This document shows, piece after piece, positions 112 to 25,427 of a stretch of DNA of 25,501 nucleotides. Source of the stretch: an uncultured virus (IMG/VR IMGVR_UViG_3300027907_000553) (lineage: Duplodnaviria > Heunggongvirae > Uroviricota > Caudoviricetes); IMG/VR virus record IMGVR_UViG_3300027907_000553; one strand, written 5' to 3'. Positions within the stretch are counted from its first letter, which is position 1. Each line of letters begins with the position of its first letter. Both the position numbers and the translations under genes were made by a program. The notes under the pieces were generated by a model, which worked only from the letters and a program-made list of their open reading frames with translations, was not told the DNA's origin and ran no database searches.

Positions 112-324
112 ATGCCGCATGACCGTGCCCAACAGCGCCGCGTCTTCGAAGAAACGATTGCCCGCGTGATGGCGGAGTACGCGCCTGCCGAGGATGTCAT
201 GGTGGAGGCCAAGGCCCTGGACGAGACCGGGCAGTCGATCGTGGTGGCCCGCTATAAGCTGCACACCGATGGGCAGGTCGAGTGTTTCGAAGTGCTCGAT
301 GAGGTCCTATGGCCGAGCCTGTAG
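112..324 (+). CDS. Small hypothetical phage protein
   Basis: 70 aa ORF, purine-rich GAGGGAAG upstream, co-oriented with operon. Confidence 0.65.
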   Translation: MPHDRAQQRRVFEETIARVMAEYAPAEDVMVEAKALDETGQSIVVARYKLHTDGQVECFEVLDEVLWPSL

Positions 325-334
325 CCAGGGCGGG

Positions 335-370
335 CGGTAAAGGTGTCACTACCCTGGAAGGGATTGCAAT
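335..370 (+). CRISPR. Solitary CRISPR-repeat-like unit (type I-D-like: CCCT-GGA-AGGG hairpin + ATTGCAAT handle)
   Basis: TACCCTGGAAGGGATTG (350-366) is identical to 24961-24977; hairpin followed by an 8-nt ATTG(C/A)AA(T/C)-type end. Confidence 0.5.
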
Positions 371-372
371 CT

Positions 373-1413
373 ATGGCCGAGTCTTTGAATGCCCAGATCG
401 CCGATGCCTTCACCGCCCGCTTGCTCCAGGTGGGCCGGGCCGAGACCCGCCAGCGCCAGGAGGCCTGGGCAGCCCTACTCTTGCTGGAGCAGGATCTGTT
501 GCATGCCCTCCGCGAGGCCGATCCGGCACAGTTTAGCTTTCTCGTGGCGCGGCGGCGGGCCGTGCAATTCCTGATGCGCGATGAGGTGGACCCGCTCGTG
601 ACCACGCGGTACGCGCAGATCGCTCGTGACGTGGACGCGTTTCTCATCGCCCTGGCCGAGCAAGAGGCTAGCGTCACTCGGCGTATCGTCAATACCGAGA
701 CCGAGAGCCGGACGATCGACGACATGCCCAGCGAAGCGGCCTTGCGCCGTGCGGTGCGGCAGACGCTCATTCCCAGCCCGGCGACGCCGACCGACCTGAG
801 TACCACGGGGGACGACTGGTGGGGCCGTGCGGCGGCCGGGGTGGTCACCCGCGTGGGCGATTCGCTGATGGTGGGGGTCAGCTTGGAGGAGCCGCTTCCG
901 ACGCTCGTCGCACGGGTGCAGGGGACGGCGGCCAACGGCTTTCAGGACGGGATTATGGCCAAGGCCAAGGAAGACGCGGCGCGGCTCTTGCGCACGCAGA
1001 CGACCAATGCCGTCAGTGAGGCGCGCGTCAAGGTGGCAGATAGCAATGCTGGCACAGTACTGATTGAACATAGTGCGGTGCTTGATAGTAGAACTAGCAC
1101 TATATGCTTAGGGCGTCATGGCTTGCGCTATACCGTACCAGAGCACGAGCCTGTCAATCATAGCGTACCGTATCTGAATGGACCACCATACCACTATGGT
1201 TGTAGAAGTACCATGATACCAGTGGTTCCTGGAGGCGGACGTGTGCCGCAGGAGAGCGTGAGTACATGGCTTAGTCGACGGGACACGGCGTTTCAGGATG
1301 CGGTCTTAGGGCCAACACGGGCACGCATGTGGCGGGCAGGCACGCTTGCTCCACGTGCGCTGATCGACAGTCTCACGGGCAAGCCGTTGACGCTCGAGGA
1401 GTTAGGTGGATGA
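373..1413 (+). CDS. Phage head morphogenesis protein (Mu gpF / SPP1 gp7 family)
   Basis: RTQTTNA...HSAVLDSRTSTICLGRHG...PPYHYGCRST motifs and C-terminal GKPLTLEELGG; start is ATG373 or GTG343. Confidence 0.92.
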   Translation: MAESLNAQIADAFTARLLQVGRAETRQRQEAWAALLLLEQDLLHALREADPAQFSFLVARRRAVQFLMRDEVDPLVTTRYAQIARDVDAFLIALAEQEASVTRRIVNTETESRTIDDMPSEAALRRAVRQTLIPSPATPTDLSTTGDDWWGRAAAGVVTRVGDSLMVGVSLEEPLPTLVARVQGTAANGFQDGIMAKAKEDAARLLRTQTTNAVSEARVKVADSNAGTVLIEHSAVLDSRTSTICLGRHGLRYTVPEHEPVNHSVPYLNGPPYHYGCRSTMIPVVPGGGRVPQESVSTWLSRRDTAFQDAVLGPTRARMWRAGTLAPRALIDSLTGKPLTLEELGG

Positions 1414-2347: not shown

Positions 2348-2550
2348 CGCTCACGGGCGAGGTGTGGCTCCCTGCGAGGCTCATGGCCGGGCGGACGATG
2401 GTGGCCATTGAGGCCCTCCTGCATGCGCATGGTGCGCTCCCGCAGCAGGCGCAGAGTCTGCGTTGGCGCCTCGATGCCGAAACACCGGGGAGTTACCGGC
2501 TGACCTATACCTTTACGCTGCCCGAGGAGAGTCTGGAGGCGCCCACATGA
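2332..2550 (+). CDS. Small hypothetical protein
   Basis: SD AGGAGG upstream, coupled to next gene. Confidence 0.65.
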   Translation: MPGTLTLTGEVWLPARLMAGRTMVAIEALLHAHGALPQQAQSLRWRLDAETPGSYRLTYTFTLPEESLEAPT

Positions 2551-3999: not shown

Positions 4000-4737
4000 A
4001 TGCGATCTCGCACGCGCGACAAGGCTGGGTTTAGCGAGGCCTCGTATAAAAAGCATCACCTCCTCTGGCGTGCTGGGCGCGCGCAAACCTCGGCCTATCA
4101 TGTCACGCATCCTCAAGCTCGGTGTGTCATTATTGATATGCATGCGGGGGCTGGCGAGGGCATTGCGCTTCCCCAGCTTGATTTCTTTCGGGAAGATGTC
4201 TCGTTTCCGACGGCAACCTTGGCAACTCGACTGAGCGATATCGTCCAGGGGGATGTCATTCTATGCGAGCGCAAGGTGAAGGAGCGGCAGCAACTCACGC
4301 AGAAGTTTCCTCACGCAGTTATTCTGGCGGATCATGCGGATATTCCAGAACAACTGGGGCATGGGTATGATTGGGCACTCGTACTGAATGATCCCTGTGG
4401 CTATTCCGAGCACGGCATTGAGACGATGCAGCAGATTGCGTCGCAGGTGGCCACCGATTGGCTCATTGTCTTTAATGAGGGCTCGTTGATGCGCATACTT
4501 GGCATGCGCCCGGTGGTCACGCAGCAAGAAATACCCTTTGTTGCACGGGTACGGGCGGCACGCGCGCTCTATGCCTGGATGGCCGAACCCCAGGCGTGGG
4601 CTGCCCGATTGCGGGCGCGGCACATGGCCAGGACTGTCCTCATTCCTGCCTCCGATGGCTTTCGCTATCGTATCTTTGTCCTGAGCCGTATGCTGAGTGA
4701 TGCGGTCAAACGTGTCCCCTGGGAGATTGTCCTATGA
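4000..4737 (+). CDS. tcmP: Three-Cys-motif partner protein (TcmP-like Rossmann methyltransferase fold)
   Basis: KKHHLL...IIDMHAGAG (SAM motif I-like), ILCE, LNDPCG; directly upstream of a DUF5131 gene; SD AAGGAG at 3984. Confidence 0.7.
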   Translation: MRSRTRDKAGFSEASYKKHHLLWRAGRAQTSAYHVTHPQARCVIIDMHAGAGEGIALPQLDFFREDVSFPTATLATRLSDIVQGDVILCERKVKERQQLTQKFPHAVILADHADIPEQLGHGYDWALVLNDPCGYSEHGIETMQQIASQVATDWLIVFNEGSLMRILGMRPVVTQQEIPFVARVRAARALYAWMAEPQAWAARLRARHMARTVLIPASDGFRYRIFVLSRMLSDAVKRVPWEIVL

Positions 4738-6275
4738 GTCCTCTCACGATCCATCCAGAACTCCAAGCCCTTATTCCGCCCTTGACCGACGAAGAGCTAA
4801 GAGACCTTACGCGTAAATTGCAGCAGGAAGGCTGCCAGGAGGCCTTAGTTGTCTGGCAAGAAACACAGACACTCGTTGATGGGCATAACCGTTTGGCAAT
4901 TTGTGAGCGCTATGAGTTGCCGTACACCACGCGGGAAATGTCGTTTCCAGATCTGGACGCGGCGAAAGTATGGATGCTAGAGAATCAACTGGCACGGCGT
5001 AACCTGACACCCGAACAAATGAGTTATCTCCGCGGCAAAAAGCGAGGCGTAGTGGGACAGCCACATGGGGGCAACAGGAAATCAAGTGCAAAAACTTTGC
5101 ACTTGAAAACGGACGTACAACTTGCCAAGGAACACAAGGTTACAGCAACAACTATACGAAATGACGCTTCTTATGCGAAAAATGTTGATGTTATTGCTGC
5201 TGTTATTCCTGAAGCAAAACAAGCGCTTTTAGCACGTGATGCTAAGCTGGGACGTCACGAGGTCAAACAACTGGCCAGTATTGCCAGGGCGAATCCCCAG
5301 ACGGCACAGCATATCGTCTATACTGTCCGTGCGGCAAAGACGCCCAAGGCTGCCAAGAAGATCGTGCGTGATGCGCTGAAGGACCTGCCGAAGCCTGAGT
5401 CAAAGCCACTCCCAAACCCTGAAACACCTGCACTTATGTTGCAGCTTACGATCCAAGAAACAACGCCGAAAGCTGGACTTGAAACAATCAAGGCTGCCGA
5501 TGGGCGAGAGATGTTTATTCTGCATAAACCGGATTCCAAGTCCGTGTTTAATAAGACTAATGAGATGGTCGATTGGGCGAGTTGGACCTGGAATCCGGTT
5601 ACGGGTTGCTGGCATGGCTGTGACTATTGTTATGCGCGGGAGATTGCTAACGACACACGTATGATCGAGGCCTATCCGAAGCAGTTTGAGCCGACGTTTC
5701 ACCCTACACGCCTTGATGCCCCGAAAAATACGCCCTTTCCGAAAGAACTGACGCGGCCTGCGGATAAAAATGTCTTTACCTGCTCGATGGCAGATCTCTT
5801 TGGAAAGTGGGTACCACAACCCTGGATTCTTGAGGTCTTTGCCCGCGTTCGGTGCCATCCTGAATGGAACTTTCTGTTTCTGACCAAGTTTCCCCAACGG
5901 TTACTAGAGATTTGTGACGCCCTCGGCGGCTTTCCTGTGAATGCGTGGGTGGGCTGTACGGTGGATGGGCAAGCGCGGGTTGCGACGGCTGAGCGAGCTT
6001 TTCAACAGATTGAGGCCACCGTACGTTGGCTCTCGGTGGAACCGATGCGGGAACGCTTAACGTTTCAGAACTTGGCCATCTTTGATTGGCTCGTGATGGG
6101 TGGCCAAACGCAAAGCTATTTTAATAACACCCCGGCTTTTCAGCCCCCCTGGGAATGGGTCGAGCACTTATGGCAGCAAGCGCGAGTAGCAGGGGTAAAA
6201 ATCTATTGGAAAGAGAATCTCACGATTCGCCCAAAAGAAGTCCCGTGGGAGGCCTCGACCGATTCATCTGCATAA
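4734..6275 (+). CDS. ParB-like N-terminal domain fused to DUF5131 (gp37/gp68, radical-SAM-like) domain
   Basis: IPPLTDEE...LVDGHNRLAIC...NQLARRNLT (ParB-like); WNPVTGCWHGCDYCYA, FTCSMADLF, FLTKFPQR, WLSVEPM, DWLVMGG (DUF5131). Confidence 0.88.
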   Translation: MSPLTIHPELQALIPPLTDEELRDLTRKLQQEGCQEALVVWQETQTLVDGHNRLAICERYELPYTTREMSFPDLDAAKVWMLENQLARRNLTPEQMSYLRGKKRGVVGQPHGGNRKSSAKTLHLKTDVQLAKEHKVTATTIRNDASYAKNVDVIAAVIPEAKQALLARDAKLGRHEVKQLASIARANPQTAQHIVYTVRAAKTPKAAKKIVRDALKDLPKPESKPLPNPETPALMLQLTIQETTPKAGLETIKAADGREMFILHKPDSKSVFNKTNEMVDWASWTWNPVTGCWHGCDYCYAREIANDTRMIEAYPKQFEPTFHPTRLDAPKNTPFPKELTRPADKNVFTCSMADLFGKWVPQPWILEVFARVRCHPEWNFLFLTKFPQRLLEICDALGGFPVNAWVGCTVDGQARVATAERAFQQIEATVRWLSVEPMRERLTFQNLAIFDWLVMGGQTQSYFNNTPAFQPPWEWVEHLWQQARVAGVKIYWKENLTIRPKEVPWEASTDSSA

Positions 6276-7344: not shown

Positions 7345-8280
7345 ATGGCCCTGACTATTGTTGAGGCGTCCAAGCTCAATTCCGGCGATGTCGCCCGCAC
7401 AGCGATCGTGGAGATGTACGCGAGGAATTCTGACATCCTGAGAGTGTTACCCTTTGAAGGCATAGCGGGCAACGCACTCAAGTATAATCGGGAGGATATT
7501 TTGCCCGGCGTGGGGTTTCGCGGGGTGAACGAAGGTTTCACGGAGTCGGTGGGCGTCCTGAACCCCATCACAGAATCCCTTGTCATTGCTGGGGGAGACC
7601 TGGATGTTGATAGGTTCATAACCCAAACCATGGGGGCGAACCAGCGCAGCGTGCAGGAAGGGTTGAAGGTGAAGGCCCTCGCGCATCGCTGGACCCTCGC
7701 CTTCATCAAGGGCGACAGTAGTGCCGATCCTCGAGAATTTGATGGTCTACAAAGGCGTATCCCGCCAGGGAGCTCGCAACTGCTCGATGCCGGGGCCACG
7801 TCGGGCGGGGATGCGCTGTCGCTCTTCAAGCTGGATACGCTGATCAGCAAGGTCGATGATCCCAACTACCTCATTATGAACAATACTATGGCTCTGAGGC
7901 TGGCACAGGCGGCCCGCAATACGGCGGTGGGCGGCTTCATTACGTGGGACCCCAATCAGTTTGGGCAGCGTGTCATGGCCTACAACGGCATTCCGATCCT
8001 GGTCGCCCGTGAGGATAACCTCGGCAACGATATCCTGCCGTTTACGGAGGCCAACCCTGGCGGTGGCGCAGCAGCCAGCACGAGCATCTATGCGGTGCAG
8101 ATGGGCGACGGCGGGCTCGTTGGGATACAGAATCAAGACATAAGCGTAAGAGACCTAGGAGAATTAGAAGCTAAGCCGGTTTTTAGGACCAGAGTGGAAT
8201 GGTATGCTTCGATCGCGGTTTTTTCGGGCCGTAGCATGGCGCGCTTGAGGGGGGTAAAGGATGCATCTGTGGTAGTATGA
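7345..8280 (+). CDS. Major capsid protein (HK97 fold)
   Basis: LPFEGIAGNALKYNRE..LPGVGFRGVNEG, GGDLDVDRFI, FIKGD...EFDGL, RTRVEWY; SD GGAGG. Confidence 0.93.
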   Translation: MALTIVEASKLNSGDVARTAIVEMYARNSDILRVLPFEGIAGNALKYNREDILPGVGFRGVNEGFTESVGVLNPITESLVIAGGDLDVDRFITQTMGANQRSVQEGLKVKALAHRWTLAFIKGDSSADPREFDGLQRRIPPGSSQLLDAGATSGGDALSLFKLDTLISKVDDPNYLIMNNTMALRLAQAARNTAVGGFITWDPNQFGQRVMAYNGIPILVAREDNLGNDILPFTEANPGGGAAASTSIYAVQMGDGGLVGIQNQDISVRDLGELEAKPVFRTRVEWYASIAVFSGRSMARLRGVKDASVVV

Positions 8281-10284: not shown

Positions 10285-11037
10285 ATGGCGGTTGAGGACG
10301 TGACGATCGGGCAGTGTCGATTGATCTGTGGGGATGCGTTTGCTTTCGCGTCCGATATCCAAGCTCATGCCCTGATCAGCGATCCTCCCTATGGGATGAA
10401 CTTTGATTATACGAAGAAGCGCGGCGTGTCTGTCTATAGCTCTAATGGCGAAAAACGCTTAGAAAGCTTCTATACGGACCGTCCTCTCAAATGGCATGGG
10501 TCTATTGTTGGGGATACTATGCCGTTTATGCCTGAGCCATTCTTGCGGTTTCCCCAGATTATTCTCTGGGGCGCGAATCACTATGCCTCACGATTGCCTG
10601 ATAGTGGGGGTTGGCTTATCTGGGACAAGCGGGTCGGGATGGGCTCTAATGATTTTAGTGATTGCGAACTGGCCTGGACCAACTTGCGTGGAGCGACGCG
10701 CCTACATCGCCAGCTCTGGAGTGGCCTCGTGCGCGAGGGCGAGGAGGTCGGGAAAGTGAAGTGTCACCCCGCGCAAAAACCTATTGCTCTCATGCGCTGG
10801 TGTGTCGAGCAAACGACTGGCACCGTTTTCGACCCGTTTATGGGTAGTGGGACGACCGGTGTGGCCTGTGTAGAAAACCAGCGCCCGTTTATCGGCATTG
10901 AAATTGAGCCACGCTACTTTGATGTGGCTTGTCGGCGCATTGAGGAAGCGCATCAACAGATGCCGCTCTTTCCCGTGGTCCCTCGCGGTGTCGAACCGCA
11001 GCAAGCGTCCCTCTTTGCGGCAGCAGGAGGTGCCTGA
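10285..11037 (+). CDS. DNA N6-adenine/N4-cytosine methyltransferase (beta class)
   Basis: SDPPY catalytic motif before HPAQKP and DPFMGSGTT SAM motif. Confidence 0.93.
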   Translation: MAVEDVTIGQCRLICGDAFAFASDIQAHALISDPPYGMNFDYTKKRGVSVYSSNGEKRLESFYTDRPLKWHGSIVGDTMPFMPEPFLRFPQIILWGANHYASRLPDSGGWLIWDKRVGMGSNDFSDCELAWTNLRGATRLHRQLWSGLVREGEEVGKVKCHPAQKPIALMRWCVEQTTGTVFDPFMGSGTTGVACVENQRPFIGIEIEPRYFDVACRRIEEAHQQMPLFPVVPRGVEPQQASLFAAAGGA

Positions 11038-11217: not shown

Positions 11218-11751
11218 ATGGCCCTGGATGCCACTCCAGGTGGCGCGAATAGTAATTCTTATACCACGGTGGCCGACGCGACCCTGTACCTCCAGCAGCG
11301 TCCGTATCACGAGGCGTGGAATGCCGCGCTGGTGAGTGGCGACGCGGCCCCGGCGCTGATGTGGGCGACCAGCCTGCTCGACAGCCTCGTGCACTGGTAC
11401 GGGACGCCGACGACGCTGACGCAGGCCCTTGCCTGGCCGCAAACGGGGCAGGTGGATCGCTACGGGCGTCCGCTCGATCCGCTCCTCATCCCCGTCGCAG
11501 TGGAACAGGCGACTGCCGTCTATGCCTTAGCGCTGCTCGGGGATACGACGCTGAGTCAGCCGAACGGCGGTAGTCAGACGGCGGGCATCAAGTCCACGAA
11601 GATTGGCGGGACGACGATCACGTACCAGGATAACCCGAATCCCGTGGCGGGCACCTCGCCGGTGACGAGCGTGCCGAGTGAGGTTCGCGCACTACTCAAG
11701 GGGTATGGTACGATGGCGGGCATGATCAACATACCTATCCTTCGCACATGA
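11218..11751 (+). CDS. Head-tail adaptor/connector (DnaT-like family)
   Basis: NSNSYTTVADA..Y, QALAWP, IPVAVEQA, IKSTKIG..TITY pattern; SD GGAGG. Confidence 0.85.
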   Translation: MALDATPGGANSNSYTTVADATLYLQQRPYHEAWNAALVSGDAAPALMWATSLLDSLVHWYGTPTTLTQALAWPQTGQVDRYGRPLDPLLIPVAVEQATAVYALALLGDTTLSQPNGGSQTAGIKSTKIGGTTITYQDNPNPVAGTSPVTSVPSEVRALLKGYGTMAGMINIPILRT

Positions 11752-21995: not shown

Positions 21996-24503
21996 ATGGC
22001 GCTATGGATTGTCGTTCGTCGTCGTCGCCTGCGTCAGCTGCGGCGCTTTGTGCCCACGCAGCGCCCACTGACCGCGACGACGACGCTGACGCAGGCGGCC
22101 CAGACGCTTTCCGCCACGGGCGTGCTCCCCCTGCTTGCCACCAGCAGTCTCACGCAGGCGGCGCAGACGCTGAGCAGCGCCAGCATCCTGCCGCTCGCTG
22201 GGACGAGTAGCCTCACCCAAGCCGCGCAGACGCTTTCCGCCACGGGCCAGGGAACACCCCTCCTTACCGGGACGGTGGCGGTCACCCAGGCCGCCCAAAC
22301 GCTCAGTAGTACCGCGGCGGTGGCGCTGCAGGCCACGACCGCGCTGGCGCAGGCTGCGCAGACCCTCGACGGGCTCGGGGCGCATGAAGGGCCATTGGTC
22401 CAAGGCCGTTGGCCCTTTGGGGCCCTGCTTACCACCACGATTCCTGGCGCCGTGCATGGCCTGGGGACGCCCAATCTCTTCGTGCAGGTCTATGATGCCG
22501 GGATCCCGGCATCGCAACTCCAGGCACAGGTCACCATCCATCCAACCTCCTACGACGTCCAGGTGCAGTTTGGGGCGCCGACCGCCGGGGCCGTCCTGGT
22601 GAGTGCCATGACCCAACCCGCGGCCGGGAAAGCGTTTCTCGTCGCCGATGGCGCGAGCTGGAGCTTTCCTGCCAGTGAGCATGGGCGCGGTAGTGGGTTG
22701 CTCTTTGTGCAACTCTTTGACTCTAGCGGCCTGCACGTTGAGGCGCCGATCCAGGTCACGGCGACAACCGGTGATGTCCTGGTGACCCTCCCGGCCGCGC
22801 GGGATGGGCGGATCGTCGTGGCGGCGCCCAGTAGCGTGCCCACCCCGGCTAATAGTGCGACGGTCTTTAGTAGTACCAGTGTCACGGTGTCGGCGGCCAC
22901 GCATGGACGCGGGTCGGTCAATCTCCTTGTGGCGGTCTATGACGCCGCGACACCGGCCAGACTTCTCGATGCGCCCATCACCGTGAACCCCAGTACGCAG
23001 GCCGTCACGGCGACGTTTCTCGTCACGCAGGCAGGGACGCTGATTATTGGGGGTGGCGCGGCCCTCGGGGCGGGCGCCGTCAGCGTGACGCAAGGCGCCC
23101 AGACATGCAGTAGTACGGGGACGCTCGCGCTCCAAGCGACGGGTGCCCTGACGCAGGCGGCGCAGACCGCGACGAGTACGGGCACGCTGCCCCTCCAGGC
23201 GGCGGCCACGCTCGCCCAGGCGGCGCAGACGGCGAGCAGTACGGGCGCGCTGCGGGTGCAGGGTACGAGCAGTGTGACGCAGGCGGCCCAGACCCTGACG
23301 AGTACCGGGACGCTGCCGCTGACGGGAACCAGTGCGCTGACGCAGGCGGCGCAGACAGTAAGCAGTATCGGAGGCTCCCAGGCTCTCGGGCTGGTGGCGC
23401 TCACGCAGGCCGCCCAAACGCTCACGAGTACGGGTGTTCTGCCGCTGGCGGGTACCAGTGCTCTGACACAAGCCGCGCAGACGGTGACGAGTACCGGCTT
23501 CATGCTGCGTCTTGGGACCCTTGCGGTCACGCAAGCCGCCCAGACGCTTGTGAGTACGGGCGTGTTGCCGCTGGCGGGCACGAGCAGTCTCGCCCAGGCG
23601 GCGCAGACGCTCGCCAGTACGGGAGCGCTGTGGCTTGCCGCGACGACCAGCCTGACGCAGGCCGCCCAGACGGTGACGAGTACCGGCGGCACGGCGCTGC
23701 AAGGGAGCGCTGCGCTCACCCAGGCCCCGCAGAGTCTGACGAGCACGGGTGTCCTGGGGCTGACGGGAAGTGTCACGGTCAGTCAGGCACCACAGGTGAG
23801 CAGTAGTACCGGAGCGCTGTCTGTGGCAGGCACGCTCACAGTGACGCAAGCCGCACAGATAGCGAGTAGTACCGGCACGCTTGTCGTTGGCGCGAGTGTT
23901 ACAGTCCTCCAGGCCGCTCAGACGCTTACTAGTACGGCGGTGGCGCTTCTCACCGGGACTGTCGCACTCAGTCAGGCCGATCAAACGGGGACGAGTACGG
24001 GGGCCCTCGCCATTGCGGGCGGCGTGGCGGTCACACAGGCTGCTCAGAGCCTCAGTAGTACAAGCTTCCTGATAAATCCGGCCTCGGGCGCCGCGCTCCT
24101 GACGCAGGAGGCCCAGAGCAGTGTGGCGACGGGTAGCCTGCGACTCGTTGGGATGGCAACCCTCAGCCAGGAAGCGCAGAGCCTCGCCGCCACGGGTGCC
24201 CTGCGGCTTCTTGGCACGGCGACGGTCAGCCAGGAGGCGCAGAGCCTCGCCGCCGCAGGTATCCTGGTGCTCGGCGGGACGGCAACCATCAGTCAGGAGC
24301 CGCAGACTCTTGTGAGTCAGGGGGTCATCGCCCTGACTGCGACGGGGCTACTCGTGCAAGCCGCGCAGACCGTCATGGCGGAAGCGATAAGTATTCCTGT
24401 CCCTGAAGTCGTTCGAGGCGCCCAGGGGGCCTTGACCCATGCCACCACGAGCGTCATGGGCTTGCGCCGCACGGGTCTCGGGCAAACTCCTCTTTTAAGG
24501 TGA
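21996..24503 (+). CDS. Long repetitive fibre-like protein (about 26 x 21-aa QAAQT repeats plus 3 H-G-x-G..V(Y/F)D modules)
   Basis: Repeats visible in the protein and as 63-bp DNA periodicity. Confidence 0.85.
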   Translation: MALWIVVRRRRLRQLRRFVPTQRPLTATTTLTQAAQTLSATGVLPLLATSSLTQAAQTLSSASILPLAGTSSLTQAAQTLSATGQGTPLLTGTVAVTQAAQTLSSTAAVALQATTALAQAAQTLDGLGAHEGPLVQGRWPFGALLTTTIPGAVHGLGTPNLFVQVYDAGIPASQLQAQVTIHPTSYDVQVQFGAPTAGAVLVSAMTQPAAGKAFLVADGASWSFPASEHGRGSGLLFVQLFDSSGLHVEAPIQVTATTGDVLVTLPAARDGRIVVAAPSSVPTPANSATVFSSTSVTVSAATHGRGSVNLLVAVYDAATPARLLDAPITVNPSTQAVTATFLVTQAGTLIIGGGAALGAGAVSVTQGAQTCSSTGTLALQATGALTQAAQTATSTGTLPLQAAATLAQAAQTASSTGALRVQGTSSVTQAAQTLTSTGTLPLTGTSALTQAAQTVSSIGGSQALGLVALTQAAQTLTSTGVLPLAGTSALTQAAQTVTSTGFMLRLGTLAVTQAAQTLVSTGVLPLAGTSSLAQAAQTLASTGALWLAATTSLTQAAQTVTSTGGTALQGSAALTQAPQSLTSTGVLGLTGSVTVSQAPQVSSSTGALSVAGTLTVTQAAQIASSTGTLVVGASVTVLQAAQTLTSTAVALLTGTVALSQADQTGTSTGALAIAGGVAVTQAAQSLSSTSFLINPASGAALLTQEAQSSVATGSLRLVGMATLSQEAQSLAATGALRLLGTATVSQEAQSLAAAGILVLGGTATISQEPQTLVSQGVIALTATGLLVQAAQTVMAEAISIPVPEVVRGAQGALTHATTSVMGLRRTGLGQTPLLR

Positions 24504-24508
24504 TTCCT

Positions 24509-24904
24509 ATGGCTGACATACCCTTGCTCCCCGCCACACTTTTGGAAGGCACGACCGGCATCTATACCTTTACGCTGCTTAGTGAAAGTGGCGGGGCAAT
24601 TCCTATCGGTGTGCTCGATACGCTGACGCTCACCTATTACGATGTGGCCAGTGGCCTCATCGTTAATGGGCGCACGAGCCAGAATACACTGAATGCGAAC
24701 GATGTGACCGTTGTTACTGACGTCGGCCCGCCCGCGGTGACGACCGTGACATGGCTGCTTCAGCCTGCCGATACGCAGATGATTGAACCCAACTTGCGGC
24801 ACGAATACCGCGTCATTCAATTTCGGTGGTCGTGGGAGGGAGGCACGCGGTACGGCGCCTATCAGGTGCAGTTTGCGGTGGAAAATATGGCCTTTGTGGT
24901 GTAA
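24509..24904 (+). CDS. BppU-N-like adaptor / structural protein
   Basis: EGTT..YTFTL....G..IP...LTLTYYD pattern; SD AAGGTGA. Confidence 0.6.
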   Translation: MADIPLLPATLLEGTTGIYTFTLLSESGGAIPIGVLDTLTLTYYDVASGLIVNGRTSQNTLNANDVTVVTDVGPPAVTTVTWLLQPADTQMIEPNLRHEYRVIQFRWSWEGGTRYGAYQVQFAVENMAFVV

Positions 24905-24945: not shown

Positions 24946-25054
24946 GTGCTAGAGTCATGGTACCCTGGAAGGGATTGAAAGGAAGGGATTGAAACGCCTT
25001 TGGGTGGCACATGCCGCCGTTCATAAGCTGCTGTTCCCTGCAAGGGATTTAAAT
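24946..25054 (+). CRISPR. Degenerate two-repeat CRISPR-like mini-array
   Basis: 36-nt units GTGCTAGAGTCATGGTACCCTGGAAGGGATTGAAAG (24946-24981) and GTTCATAAGCTGCTGTTCCCTGCAAGGGATTTAAAT (25019-25054), 37 nt apart, last 22 nt 18/22 identical; intergenic. Confidence 0.55.
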
Positions 25055-25178
25055 CATCATACCGGTAGTCACTGGTCGCCTGAGATGGCTTTCAGGTAAC
25101 ACATACCGCCGCAGAGTTTCGTAGCACCTTGTTGCTGCGTTTCTGTCGGCGGTTTCGTGTTTCTGGAGGTCGCGCACC

Positions 25179-25427
25179 ATGGAAGACGCCCCCTACCGCT
25201 CGGAATCCTGGTCAGGGCTTATCCAATTTCGCTGTCCTGCCTGTGGCTACGATACCCTGCTGCAAGCCCGGATGGATGCCCACATCGCGCACTGTACCCG
25301 CTTGCAAGCGGCCATCGCCGCGGGAGAGCCCCCATCGCCGTTTCCGCCCCCTGAGCCAGAGCCTGACGAGGAGCCCGCCCCAGACGACGAGCCCGTCCCG
25401 GTCCAACCAGCGCCTGCGGGGGCGTAA
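25179..25427 (+). CDS. Small zinc-finger protein with Pro/acidic tail
   Basis: FRCPACGY...MDAHIAHC; SD GGAGG. Confidence 0.75.
   Translation: MEDAPYRSESWSGLIQFRCPACGYDTLLQARMDAHIAHCTRLQAAIAAGEPPSPFPPPEPEPDEEPAPDDEPVPVQPAPAGA

What the first reader, a model, noticed from the sequence alone, without database searches (positions are those of the whole stretch)
24946..25054. Cas-less degenerate CRISPR mini-array inside the tail module
Seen: two 36-nt units, both starting GT, sharing a CCCT-N3-AGGG hairpin and ATT(G/T)AAA(G/T) ends, 37 nt apart, in the only long non-coding gap of the tail region. Unit 1 shares 17 identical bp with the unit 24.6 kb upstream. The 5' halves have diverged while the hairpin and handle, the part Cas6 recognises, are kept. 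Known: phage mini-arrays, creA-like pseudo-repeat pairs and Racrs have this layout. Inference: the phage borrows host Cas proteins for inter-phage competition, regulation or anti-CRISPR.
Basis: partly seen in the sequence, partly recalled or inferred. Interest (0 to 1): 0.75.

Follow-up and report, generated by a model that had tools for sequence, protein, structure and literature searches.

The report
Collapsed phage-borne type I-D CRISPR mini-array
A soil phage carries, just ahead of its tail genes, the worn-down remains of a small CRISPR array copied from its host's type I-D system, at a spot where related phages keep working mini-arrays aimed at one another.

Summary
The two units and a third at 334-370 exist and exceed chance (3 motif hits against 0.34 expected).

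They are CRISPR-derived. The hairpin plus handle equals the 3' end of a 37-nt repeat in uncultured-bacterial arrays that lie beside Cas4-Cas1d-Cas2, which marks type I-D.

Sixteen related phage loci show seven states of this one site:
- an intact I-D mini-array, with a spacer matching rival relatives 29/29 beside a GTT PAM;
- collapsed I-D forms, the window's among them;
- type I-E mini-arrays;
- an empty site.

In the window:
- Unit 1 is only the 3' 19 nt of a repeat, 7 nt after a conserved extended -10-like box. Its "5' half" is that box, not diverged repeat.
- An exact 14-nt tandem duplication follows it.
- Next comes a 23-nt spacer-like stretch with no target found.
- Unit 2 is a degenerate full-length terminal repeat.

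No cas genes lie in the window or in five related, incomplete records.

Best reading: a decaying mini-array, probably still transcribed and cut by host Cas6d but without a working guide. Decoy, regulator and live-guide readings remain open.

This is a new member of a known kind. The comparative locus is the interesting part.

The parts
24947..24955 (+). Extended -10-like box TGcTAGAGT, the putative promoter of the array and of the downstream tail-gene leader
   Evidence: Read. The form TGnTAGnnT recurs at the same place in all 16 related loci. The two-hexamer sigma-70 scan found nothing here, so promoter function is inferred.
24963..24981 (+). Half repeat R0: hairpin CCCTGGAAGGG (24963-24973) plus 8-nt handle ATTGAAAG (24974-24981). 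It starts 7 nt after the -10-like box.
   Evidence: 18 of 18 bases equal the 3' part of the host-type repeat. The same promoter-proximal half repeat stands in relatives L040/L181 and L084/L178 and in the host leaders of L160 and L173.
24981..24994 (+). Second copy of an exact 14-nt tandem duplication: GGAAGGGATTGAAA at 24967-24980 and again at 24981-24994. Base 24995 is the C that completes a canonical ATTGAAAC handle.
   Evidence: Read directly. The same duplication, now diverged, is present in the L177/L188/L191 type.
24996..25018 (+). 23-nt spacer-like stretch (psiS)
   Evidence: It lies between the handle and unit 2. It has no match except itself in the phage loci held. No seed-plus-PAM match above chance turned up in 314 kb of phage and host sequence. 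Its first 20 nt have no exact match in IMG/VR apart from near-identical contigs. The relative L040 also has a 23-nt first spacer.
25019..25054 (+). Degenerate full-length terminal repeat: hairpin CCCTGCAAGGG (25036-25046) and handle ATTTAAAT (25047-25054)
   Evidence: It aligns to the host repeat over 34 columns with 26 identical and scores 16, against a maximum of 15 in 20 shuffles.
25064..25200 (+). Conserved structured leader. GGTAGTCACTGGTCGCC and following bases pair with the Shine-Dalgarno sequence (25165-25169), the start codon (25179) and the first codons of the next ORF.
   Evidence: Alignment fold of 7 locus variants gives 42 pairs, 5 of them with compensatory changes. The single-sequence fold has z = -2.9.
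25179..25427 (+). 82-aa Cys/His-rich small ORF with no family hit. Its SD and start region (25162-25192) is the site that the relative's mini-array spacer matches. A major tail protein gene follows.
   Evidence: ORF list. No Pfam or PHROG hit. The L040 spacer matches here 28 of 31 with a gap. The next ORF in G001 hits phrog_584, major tail protein, at 5e-7.
334..370 (+). Solitary repeat unit, degenerate in its 5' half: hairpin 352-362 and handle ATTGCAAT 363-370. It ends 2 nt before the ATG (373) of the Mu-F-like head gene.
   Evidence: 25 of 31 columns identical to the host repeat; score 19 against a shuffle maximum of 15. It is flanked by the duplicated CTATGGCCGAG (307-317 and 371-381), and GTC precedes the first copy. 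The relative G003 has it at the same place. G002 has a unit one gene upstream instead.
24500..24904 (+). 134-aa upstream gene, used to find orthologous loci
   Evidence: 9 related viral loci at 64-99% identity.

Best explanation
This is a collapsed, Cas-less mini-CRISPR array of type I-D origin. It sits in the 5' leader of the phage's tail-gene transcript.

Shown:
- The units derive from a real 37-nt type I-D repeat used by co-occurring bacteria.
- The site is a hot spot. Related phages carry there an intact I-D mini-array, collapsed I-D forms, type I-E mini-arrays, or nothing.
- The intact relative's spacer matches rival relatives next to a GTT PAM.

Inferred:
- An L040-like array (promoter, half repeat, 23-nt first spacer, full repeats and spacers) lost its spacers by recombination between repeats.
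- It also suffered a 14-nt slippage duplication.
- What remains is promoter + half repeat + duplicated repeat tail + 23-nt remnant + degenerate terminal repeat.

It is probably still transcribed from the conserved TGnTAGAGT box. Both 4-bp hairpins survive, so host Cas6d probably still binds and cuts it. The released RNA would carry 14 repeat-derived bases between the handle and the 23-nt stretch, and it has no detectable target. I therefore think it no longer guides interference, and that any titration of Cas6d or Cascade is a by-product and not its selected role.

My odds: CRISPR-derived mini-array remnant about 0.9; 'no selected guide function today' about 0.5.
For: Identity of the repeat:
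- The 18-nt core occurs at 71-77-nt spacing in 13 contigs of 10 bacterial assemblies among 69 genome loci.
- One of these arrays (L134) lies beside Cas10d/Csc3, Csc2, Csc1, Cas6, Cas4 and Cas1.
- Among 15 distinct metagenome loci, the repeat GTCTCAAAGCAGTAGCTG+core lies beside Cas4-Cas1-Cas2 in 3. L160's Cas1 scores 423 bits on the type I-D Cas1d model, above its cut-off of 385, and is 64% identical to L134's Cas1.

Comparison of the locus:
- 16 of the 17 anchor hits are related and fall into 7 states.
- L040/L181 has a half repeat, a 23-nt stretch and 3 full repeats that differ from the host repeat at 3-4 of 37 positions.
- Its 33-nt spacer matches G003/L177/L188/L191 at 29 of 29 bases with a GTT flank, while its own copy of the site has diverged.
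- A second phage group's spacer matches relatives at 34 of 37 and 33 of 37 with a GTC flank.
- GTN/GTH is the type I-D PAM, and I-D repeats have the 8 + 29 nt handles that make a 37-nt repeat (PMC10212523, passages).

Signs of decay:
- An exact 14-nt tandem duplication.
- The L084 type keeps one fused unit, with the window's R0 left flank and unit 2's right flank.
- The L177 type shares the duplication and has lost its spacers.
- No target was found for the 23-mer.
- Loss of spacers by recombination between repeats is expected for viral mini-arrays (PMC7099407, passages).

Co-occurrence: contigs from the same rhizosphere runs hold the window type with 0 differences, plus pieces with the L084-type deletion and with the L040/L177-type and I-E-type tails.
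Against: - The hairpin and handle of R0 are perfect in the window and in the L084 type. Spacer-poor forms make up 9 of the 10 I-D-bearing related loci, which could reflect selection for a lone repeat and not decay.
- The 23-nt length equals that of the first spacer of the intact relative. It also falls in the 21-24-nt range of known viral regulatory crRNA-like RNAs.
- The search for a target was limited: exact 20-mers in IMG/VR and 314 kb of local sequence. The host genome, including its effector-gene promoters, is not available.
- Near-identical copies of the window type (G001, L082, L083) give no information on selection.
- No RNA data exist for this locus.
- Promoter function is inferred from a conserved -10-like box alone.
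Confidence: 0.5

Rival explanations
1. Selected repeat mimic (Racr-like RNA anti-CRISPR). The promoter-proximal half repeat, made in quantity at the head of a late transcript, binds Cas6d, and possibly Cas5d/Cas7d, and starves the host's type I-D system of parts.
For: [quoted passage not shown]
- R0 lies 7-8 nt after the -10-like box in the window, L040 and L084 types.
- Lone units recur at other places in this phage group: window 334-370, G002 at 43327, G003 at 51498, and the loci L047, L057, L059 and L065.
- R0 is intact in 7 of the 10 I-D-bearing related loci, that is the window, L084 and L040 types.
Against: - By the SRUfinder rule, two units within 100 bp are a mini-array and not a solitary unit (methods passage).
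- R0 has decayed in the L177 type, at 5 of 19 positions.
- R0 lacks the 5' 18 nt of the repeat, and it is untested whether Cas6d needs that part.
- No acr gene was recognised nearby.
- There is no binding or inhibition data.
Confidence: 0.2
2. crRNA-like regulator: a type I-D counterpart of viral 'Cracr' and host CreA/CreR RNAs. The repeat-like, 23-nt, repeat-like unit would load into host Cascade and, by partial pairing, shut down a host promoter such as cas10d or a CRISPR-guarding toxin, without cutting DNA.
For: - The architecture fits: a short spacer-like stretch of 23 nt and a degraded distal repeat. Compare the 21-24-nt psiS of viral Cracr RNAs (bioRxiv 10.1101/2024.10.29.618823, sections 7-8).
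- Host type I-D loci have regulatory mini-arrays with degraded distal repeats that pair with cas10d promoters (bioRxiv 10.1101/2023.03.03.530964, passages).
- The intact relative also begins with a 23-nt unit.
Against: - No seed of 9 or more bases with a GTN flank above chance was found in the 314 kb searched, which includes the Cas4-Cas1-Cas2-leader contigs. The host effector operon could not be examined.
- The 14-nt duplication puts repeat-derived bases, not the 23-mer, next to the handle that Cas6d would create.
- The 23-mers of the window and of L040 are unrelated.
Confidence: 0.13
3. Live one-guide mini-array. The RNA between the two hairpins is a working crRNA against a competitor phage or plasmid that is not in the collections searched.
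For: - Both hairpins are intact, and degenerate terminal repeats are normal in arrays.
- Relatives at this locus do carry cross-targeting spacers with correct PAM flanks.
- Viral mini-arrays typically hold a single spacer against a close relative (PMC7099407 abstract; PMC6858448).
Against: - The guide would begin with 14 repeat-derived bases. Its unique part is 23 nt, against the 33-39 nt of real spacers of this repeat.
- No protospacer was found.
- Wherever this repeat occurs in DNA, the repeat-derived seed is preceded by CTG, not GTN.
Confidence: 0.12
4. Not CRISPR-related: chance hairpins, or a phage regulatory motif that only resembles a repeat.
For: - Rfam gives no hit for the window units.
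- The stems are only 4 bp, and the minimum-energy fold of the whole leader does not use them.
- Of the 78 viral loci that hold the 15-mer, many lack the handle extension and look like chance occurrences.
Against: - Unit 2 and the unit at 334-370 align beyond the hairpin to the real repeat, scoring 16 and 19 against a shuffle maximum of 15.
- The orthologous site in a relative holds full 37-nt repeats with 33- and 36-nt spacers, one of which matches rival phages.
- Another relative holds type I-E repeats at this same site that are 28 of 29 identical to an array next to a complete I-E operon.
Confidence: 0.03

Closest known systems
Virus-borne mini-CRISPR arrays (Medvedeva et al. 2019, PMC6858448; phage mini-arrays of Faure et al. 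2019 as described there and in PMC7099407 and PMC11656645)
   Same: - No cas genes on the virus.
- One or two spacers between repeats that match host arrays.
- An intergenic position that is the same in relatives while the spacers differ.
- Spacers that hit nearby genes of close relatives, while the carrier's own copy is mutated. All of this is seen in this phage family.
- Stand-alone repeats occur elsewhere in the same genomes.
   Different: - The window's own copy has no identifiable target. It is damaged by a 14-nt duplication and a short 23-nt spacer.
- The repeats are bacterial type I-D.
- The first unit is a half repeat fused to the promoter, not a full repeat behind a leader.
- The same site holds type I-E arrays in other relatives.
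Solitary repeat units / RNA anti-CRISPRs (Racrs; Camara-Wilpert et al. 2023, PMC10651486)
   Same: - A repeat mimic immediately downstream of a promoter in a phage.
- The repeat type matches a CRISPR system present in the same community.
- The unit at 334-370 and the single-unit L084-type locus look like classical solitary units.
   Different: - The pair at 24946-25054 is two units 37 nt apart, which that study's pipeline classes as a mini-array.
- Unit 1 lacks the repeat's 5' half.
- No inhibition or Cas binding has been tested.
- That paper's main text mentions type I-D only in its reference list. I did not open its supplementary lists of units, which may include type I-D units or even these contigs.
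crRNA-like regulatory RNAs: host CreA/CreR-type mini-arrays (Shmakov et al. 2023 preprint 10.1101/2023.03.03.530964) and viral 'Cracr' RNAs (Liu et al. preprint 10.1101/2024.10.29.618823)
   Same: - Repeat-like, short spacer-like, degraded repeat-like layout.
- A spacer-like stretch of 23 nt.
- Expression without nearby cas genes.
   Different: - The defining partial, PAM-flanked match to a cas or toxin promoter was not found in the little host sequence available.
- The viral Cracr candidates in section 7 of the preprint are for V-A, I-F, I-E, I-C and I-B, not I-D.
Type I-D CRISPR arrays of bacteria (review PMC10212523)
   Same: - A 37-nt repeat with a small hairpin followed by an 8-nt handle.
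- Spacers of about 35 nt.
- GTN/GTH PAM flanks on matched targets.
- A Cas4-Cas1d-Cas2 module and a leader of about 205 nt in the putative host contigs.
   Different: - The window holds only a half repeat and one degenerate repeat, with no adaptation or effector genes.
- The host leaders of L160 and L173 carry a half repeat 56-57 nt before the first full repeat. I did not find this feature described in the passages I read.

Membership tests
Type I-D CRISPR repeat | 37-nt repeat consisting of a 5' part, a short hairpin and an 8-nt 3' handle (the 8 + 29 nt crRNA handles) | tested here: met
   - Unit 2 (25019-25054, 36 nt) aligns end to end with the 37-nt host repeat, 26 of 34 columns identical.
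- Unit 1 matches only the last 18-19 nt, at 18 of 18.
- The unit at 334-370 matches 25 of 31.
- Handle lengths are taken from PMC10212523.
Type I-D CRISPR repeat | The same repeat lies next to type I-D cas genes in cellular DNA | tested here: met
   - L160, L162 and L173 have Cas4-Cas1-(Cas2)-leader-array. L160's Cas1 is best matched by the Cas1d model, at 423 bits against a cut-off of 385.
- The L134 array shares the 3' 19 nt and lies next to Cas10d, Csc2 and Csc1.
- Effector genes of the exact host were not seen.
Type I-D CRISPR repeat | Targets flanked by a 5'-GTN/GTH PAM | tested here: met
   Met for relatives only. Two of the 2 cross-targeting spacers have GTT or GTC flanks. The window's own spacer-like stretch has no target to test.
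Rfam CRISPR-DR families | Score at or above a family's gathering threshold | tested here: not met
   The window gives no hit. The window units give none at E up to 5. The host repeat's best hit is CRISPR-DR10 at 23.8 bits, against a threshold of 39.
Virus-borne mini-CRISPR array | Two or more host-like repeats flanking 1-2 spacers in a viral genome without cas genes | tested here: met
   - Two units flank 37 nt.
- The virus identity rests on head, connector and tail genes.
- No Cas family appears in 30 window ORFs.
- Cas6 and Csc2 are absent from 5 related records that are 21-70% complete.
Virus-borne mini-CRISPR array | Spacer matches a related virus, while the carrier's own copy escapes | tested here: not met
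   - Not met for the window: no match for 24982-25018 or 24996-25018.
- Met for the relative L040/G006, at 29 of 29 against G003-type phages with its own copy diverged, and for L024.
Solitary repeat unit / Racr | A truly solitary repeat, with no other repeat-like sequence within 100 bp | tested here: not met
   Units 1 and 2 are 37 nt apart. The criterion is from the methods passage of PMC10651486. The unit at 334-370 does meet it.
Solitary repeat unit / Racr | Binds Cas proteins and lowers CRISPR interference | not testable with these tools
   This needs expression in a strain with a type I-D system.
Viral crRNA-like regulator (Cracr) | [quoted passage not shown] | tested here: inconclusive
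   No GTN-flanked seed above chance was found in 314 kb or in 179 kb of host-type loci. The host's effector operon is not among the sequences held.

The most novel reading that the evidence does not exclude
The site ahead of the tail genes may be a swap-in dock. There this phage family would exchange host-matched CRISPR cassettes of two different subtypes, I-D and I-E. The window's promoter + half repeat + 23-nt + degraded repeat unit would then not be debris. It would be a phage-made type I-D crRNA-like regulator or decoy, the first of that subtype, processed by host Cas6d at the very 5' end of the late transcript. That design mirrors the half repeat standing in the host's own array leader.
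Probability: 0.15. Interest if true: 0.75.

Novelty: new member of a known kind. Interest (0 to 1): 0.5.

Why it matters
Phage-borne mini-arrays and lone repeats are already known. This case adds a bacterial type I-D example with unusually clear comparative anatomy. One intergenic site in one phage family shows intact, collapsed and empty states, and it holds arrays of two CRISPR subtypes. The variants coexist in the same samples, and the cross-targeting spacers obey the type I-D PAM.

That makes the family a natural series for asking three questions:
- how viral mini-arrays are gained, used and lost;
- whether collapsed forms become decoys or regulators;
- what a promoter-proximal half repeat, which the host leader also has, does.

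The window's own copy is probably the least functional member of the series.

Tried and rejected
- **Rfam.** At gathering thresholds the window gave nothing. Permissive scans gave only sub-threshold CRISPR-DR10 hits for the host repeat, and nothing for the window units or the I-E-type repeats.
- **Related phages in GenBank.** Megablast of 25 kb of the window against GenBank phages found no match.
- **Own assembly.** It is not held, so I worked from the nearest virus record G001, which is identical at the locus and so uninformative.
- **Host identity.**
  - The protein atlas on a host-contig CoA-transferase gave only 'Bacteria, commonest Pseudomonadota'.
  - G002 is labelled a provirus, but the 37 of 58 ORFs I scanned are phage-like or unassigned, with no clear host flank and no tRNA.
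  - The host repeat against plasmids gave only noise.
  - The I-E-type repeat's nearest plasmid relatives are mostly Streptomyces and alphaproteobacteria, which is a weak hint at best.
- **Targets.** Nothing was found for the window's 23- or 37-nt stretch. About 25 host spacers gave no convincing hit to the phages held; the best was 17 of 18 bases at E 0.035. The two I-E spacers and L040's third spacer matched only themselves.
- **RNA evidence.** No RNA holder is listed.
- **Promoter.** The two-hexamer promoter scan found 0 sites.
- **Folding.** The whole-leader minimum-energy fold does not show the 4-bp repeat hairpins.
- **Unit 2 as a guide.** I considered the idea that unit 2 plus the native downstream sequence guides against array-less relatives, and dropped it. 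The flanks there are GCG, GCA or GTG, and an indel breaks the seed.
- **Earlier notes of this scan.** Searches by place and by sequence returned nothing.
Full report
**What is in the window**

The window is the structural half of a tailed phage. Its genes include:
- a Mu-F-like head morphogenesis protein (373-1413);
- a scaffold protein and a major head protein (7345-8280);
- adaptors and a tail terminator;
- a Laminin-G-like protein;
- an 835-aa protein built of 21-residue repeats;
- a 134-aa ORF ending at 24904.

After a 274-nt gap comes an 82-aa Cys/His-rich ORF (25179-25427). In the near-identical record G001 a major tail protein gene follows it. Larger relatives go on to a tape-measure protein and a J-like tip protein.

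None of the 30 window ORFs hits a Cas family. Cas6 and Csc2 profiles found nothing in 5 related virus records, which are 21-70% complete.

**The observation**

The two 36-nt units are as described. CCCTNNNAGGGATT occurs 3 times on the + strand (352, 24963, 25036). Shuffles give 0.34 on average, and 1 of 100 reaches 3. The three sites form one repeat family (D14).

**Is it CRISPR?**

A scan of one genome per prokaryotic species with the 18-nt core CCCTGGAAGGGATTGAAA returned 69 loci.
- In 13 contigs from 10 assemblies the core recurs every 71-77 nt.
- Each such repeat pairs the same 3' 19 nt with an unrelated 5' half.
- One array (L134) lies next to Cas10d/Csc3, Csc2, Csc1, Cas6, Cas4 and Cas1, a type I-D system.

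A metagenome scan with a pattern that tolerates the variation seen in phage copies returned 15 distinct loci.
- The common repeat there is GTCTCAAAGCAGTAGCTG plus the core and a final C (37 nt), with spacers of 33-39 nt.
- In 3 of the 15 loci (L160, L162, L173) the array follows Cas4, Cas1 and Cas2 and a leader of about 205 nt.
- L160's Cas1 is best matched by the type I-D Cas1d model, at 423 bits against a cut-off of 385. It is 64% identical to L134's Cas1.
- Others are array ends next to ordinary chromosomal genes.
- Three of the 15 are phage contigs.

Aligned to this repeat:

| Unit | Columns identical | Score |
|---|---|---|
| Unit 2 (25019-25054) | 26 of 34 | 16 |
| Unit at 334-370 | 25 of 31 | 19 |
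| Unit 1, 3' part only | 18 of 18 | 18 |

The best score in 20 shuffled windows was 15. Rfam places none of the window units in a CRISPR-DR family. Even the host repeat reaches only 23.8 bits for CRISPR-DR10, against a threshold of 39.

**The same site in relatives**

A 17-nt conserved anchor just downstream (25064-25080) pulled out 17 viral loci. Sixteen are related and one is a chance hit. Between the stop of the 134-aa gene and the anchor they show seven states:

| State | Loci | Content |
|---|---|---|
| 1. Window type | 2 | As in the window |
| 2. L181 = L040 = G006 | 1 | -10-like box, half repeat, 23 nt, then three full 37-nt repeats with 33- and 36-nt spacers; the repeats differ from the host repeat at 3-4 positions |
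| 3. L084 type | 4 | A single half repeat |
| 4. L177 type | 3 | A decayed half repeat plus the 14-nt repeat tail, no spacer |
| 5. L184 type | 2 | Two 29-nt repeats with a 32-nt spacer |
| 6. L176 type | 3 | The same kind as state 5, with a degenerate second repeat |
| 7. L186 | 1 | No repeat at all, only the -10-like box |

The 29-nt repeats are type I-E. They are 28 of 29 identical to an array that lies directly after cas3-casA-casB-cas7e-cas5e-cas6e-cas1e-cas2e on a Frigidibacter plasmid, and the spacer length is the same.

All 16 related loci keep a TGnTAGnnT box upstream.

Contigs from four rhizosphere runs laid on the window show the window type with 0 differences. The same runs also hold pieces with the L084-type deletion and with the tails of the L040/L177 type and the I-E type. 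The variants therefore coexist.

**What the relatives' spacers hit**

- The 33-nt spacer of L040/G006 matches the G003-type phages (G003, L177, L188, L191) at 29 of 29 bases, 30 of 33 overall. The site is the ribosome-binding site and start of the small ORF next to the array.
- The same spacer matches L186 at 25 of 26, the L084 group at 27 of 29, and the window at 28 of 31 with a gap (25162-25192). G006's own copy differs in the middle.
- The flank is GTT.
- In a second phage group, L024's 38-nt spacer matches L004 and L081 at 34 of 37 and L033 and L166 at 33 of 37, with a GTC flank.
- GTN/GTH is the type I-D PAM, and 8 + 29-nt handles are the type I-D crRNA form (PMC10212523, passages).

This is the pattern described for virus-borne mini-arrays: one or two spacers, targets close to the array in near relatives, and the carrier's own copy mutated (PMC6858448, passages; PMC7099407, passages).

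**Anatomy of the window's copy**

- TGcTAGAGT (24947-24955) is followed after 7 nt by the half repeat CCCTGGAAGGG + ATTGAAAG (24963-24981).
- GGAAGGGATTGAAA occurs twice in exact tandem (24967-24980 and 24981-24994), and base 24995 is C. Without the duplication the half repeat would end in the canonical ATTGAAAC.
- Then come 23 nt (24996-25018) and the degenerate full repeat (25019-25054). Its hairpin is kept, with loop GCA in place of GGA, and its handle is ATTTAAAT.
- The L177 type shares the duplication, with 3 differences between its copies, so the duplication is older than the split of these types.
- The L084 type looks like the window type after recombination between its two units. It has R0's left flank and unit 2's right flank, AAATCATC.TACC.

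I read the series as decay of an L040-like array by recombination between repeats and by slippage. That route of loss is expected for viral mini-arrays (PMC7099407). The direction of change is inferred, not shown.

**Does the window's copy still do anything?**

If host Cas6d cuts after each hairpin, the RNA would be the 8-nt handle, then 14 repeat-derived bases, then the 23-mer, then 28 nt of unit 2.

- Neither the 37-nt nor the 23-nt stretch matches anything except itself in the phage loci and five larger relatives held.
- No GTN-flanked seed rises above chance in 314 kb of phage and host sequence.
- The first 20 nt of the 23-mer occur in IMG/VR only in near-identical contigs.
- In DNA the repeat-derived seed is always preceded by CTG, not GTN.
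- No RNA data could be found (see Tried and rejected).

I therefore favour a remnant that is transcribed and probably still cut but has no working guide.

Three other readings stay open:
- **A selected Racr-like decoy.** Lone repeats right after promoters are typical of these (PMC10651486).
- **A type I-D crRNA-like regulator.** The short 23-nt spacer and degraded distal repeat resemble host I-D regulatory mini-arrays and viral Cracr RNAs.
- **A live guide against an unsampled rival.**

The host's effector operon, which would decide the regulator reading, is not available.

**The third unit, 334-370**

- It is a full-length but degenerate repeat that ends 2 nt before the ATG of the Mu-F-like gene.
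- It is flanked by a duplicated CTATGGCCGAG (307-317 and 371-381). The first copy is the end of the 70-aa ORF and is preceded by GTC.
- In G002 the two genes overlap at this sequence and there is no unit. G003 has the unit at the same place.
- G002 instead has a unit one gene upstream. It is followed by a diverged copy of a segment of the 70-aa ORF, which in G003 is flanked by GTC and matches 28 of 38. My hand count against the window gives 29 of 38, also after GTC.

This fits capture of repeat units by recombination at former protospacers. I could test only the flanks, not the activity.

**Comparison with what is known, and novelty**

The element is a new member of a known kind, namely viral mini-arrays and lone repeats.

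One full-text search for 'type I-D' with 'mini-array' and 'phage' found 4 papers, of which 3 were listed. In the passages I read from those three, none describes a phage type I-D mini-array. I did not open the supplementary lists of viral repeat units in PMC10651486 or of Faure et al. 2019, which may already include such units.

The points that go beyond the textbook picture are:
- the seven-state hot spot that takes both I-D and I-E cassettes;
- the promoter-fused half repeat, which the host leaders of L160 and L173 also carry, 56-57 nt before their first repeat;
- the visible route of decay.

**Verdict**

The present function of this copy is unresolved, with 'decaying remnant' the most likely reading.

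Noticed in passing
window 25064-25200: A leader of about 135 nt, conserved across all locus variants, folds into a long hairpin. The hairpin pairs GGTAGTCACTGGTCGCC and following bases with the Shine-Dalgarno sequence, start codon and first codons of the 82-aa ORF. The alignment fold gives 42 pairs, 5 with compensatory changes. It looks like a translational control element and matches no Rfam family.
   Followed up: partly
L160 (- strand) and L173:891-983: The putative host's type I-D leader carries, right after a TATAAT box, a half repeat identical to the repeat's last 19 nt. It stands 56-57 nt before the first full repeat. The type I-D leader of L134 lacks it but shares the GATGCTCGC motif that follows it.
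   Followed up: partly
window 307-381: The solitary repeat at 334-370 sits in a 46-nt insert (325-370) between two copies of CTATGGCCGAG. The first copy is preceded by GTC, a type I-D PAM. This suggests the repeat was captured by recombination at a former protospacer. In G002 the two genes overlap at that sequence and no repeat is present.
   Followed up: partly
G002 (L194:3288-3344, - strand): A lone half repeat lies after the stop of the upstream gene. It is followed by a diverged duplicate of a segment of the 70-aa ORF. The matching site in G003 is flanked by GTC and matches 28 of 38.
   Followed up: partly
window 21996-24503: An 835-aa ORF is built largely of 63-nt (21-residue) tandem repeats: 11-13 copies at 60-79% identity. 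It hits no Pfam or PHROG family and lies among tail-fibre-like genes.
   Followed up: no
window 2505-2521 and 24562-24578: An exact 17-nt direct repeat (CTATACCTTTACGCTGC) lies 22 kb apart on the same strand. It is read in different frames in two ORFs, and a third copy at 11520-11536 is 82% identical. I estimate about 0.02 such pairs by chance in 25 kb. It remains unexplained.
   Followed up: no
L024, L033/L166, L004/L081, L047, L057/L061, L059, L065, L050: Other viral contigs carry the same type I-D hairpin plus handle as lone units or two-unit arrays. It often ends 1-3 nt before a start codon, as in ATTGAAAT-ATG and ATTGAAAC-c-ATG, so the 8-nt handle would be almost the whole 5' untranslated region after Cas6 cutting.
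   Followed up: partly
window 10285-11037 and 4734-6275: A DNA methyltransferase and a DUF5131-containing 513-aa protein sit inside the head-gene block.
   Followed up: no
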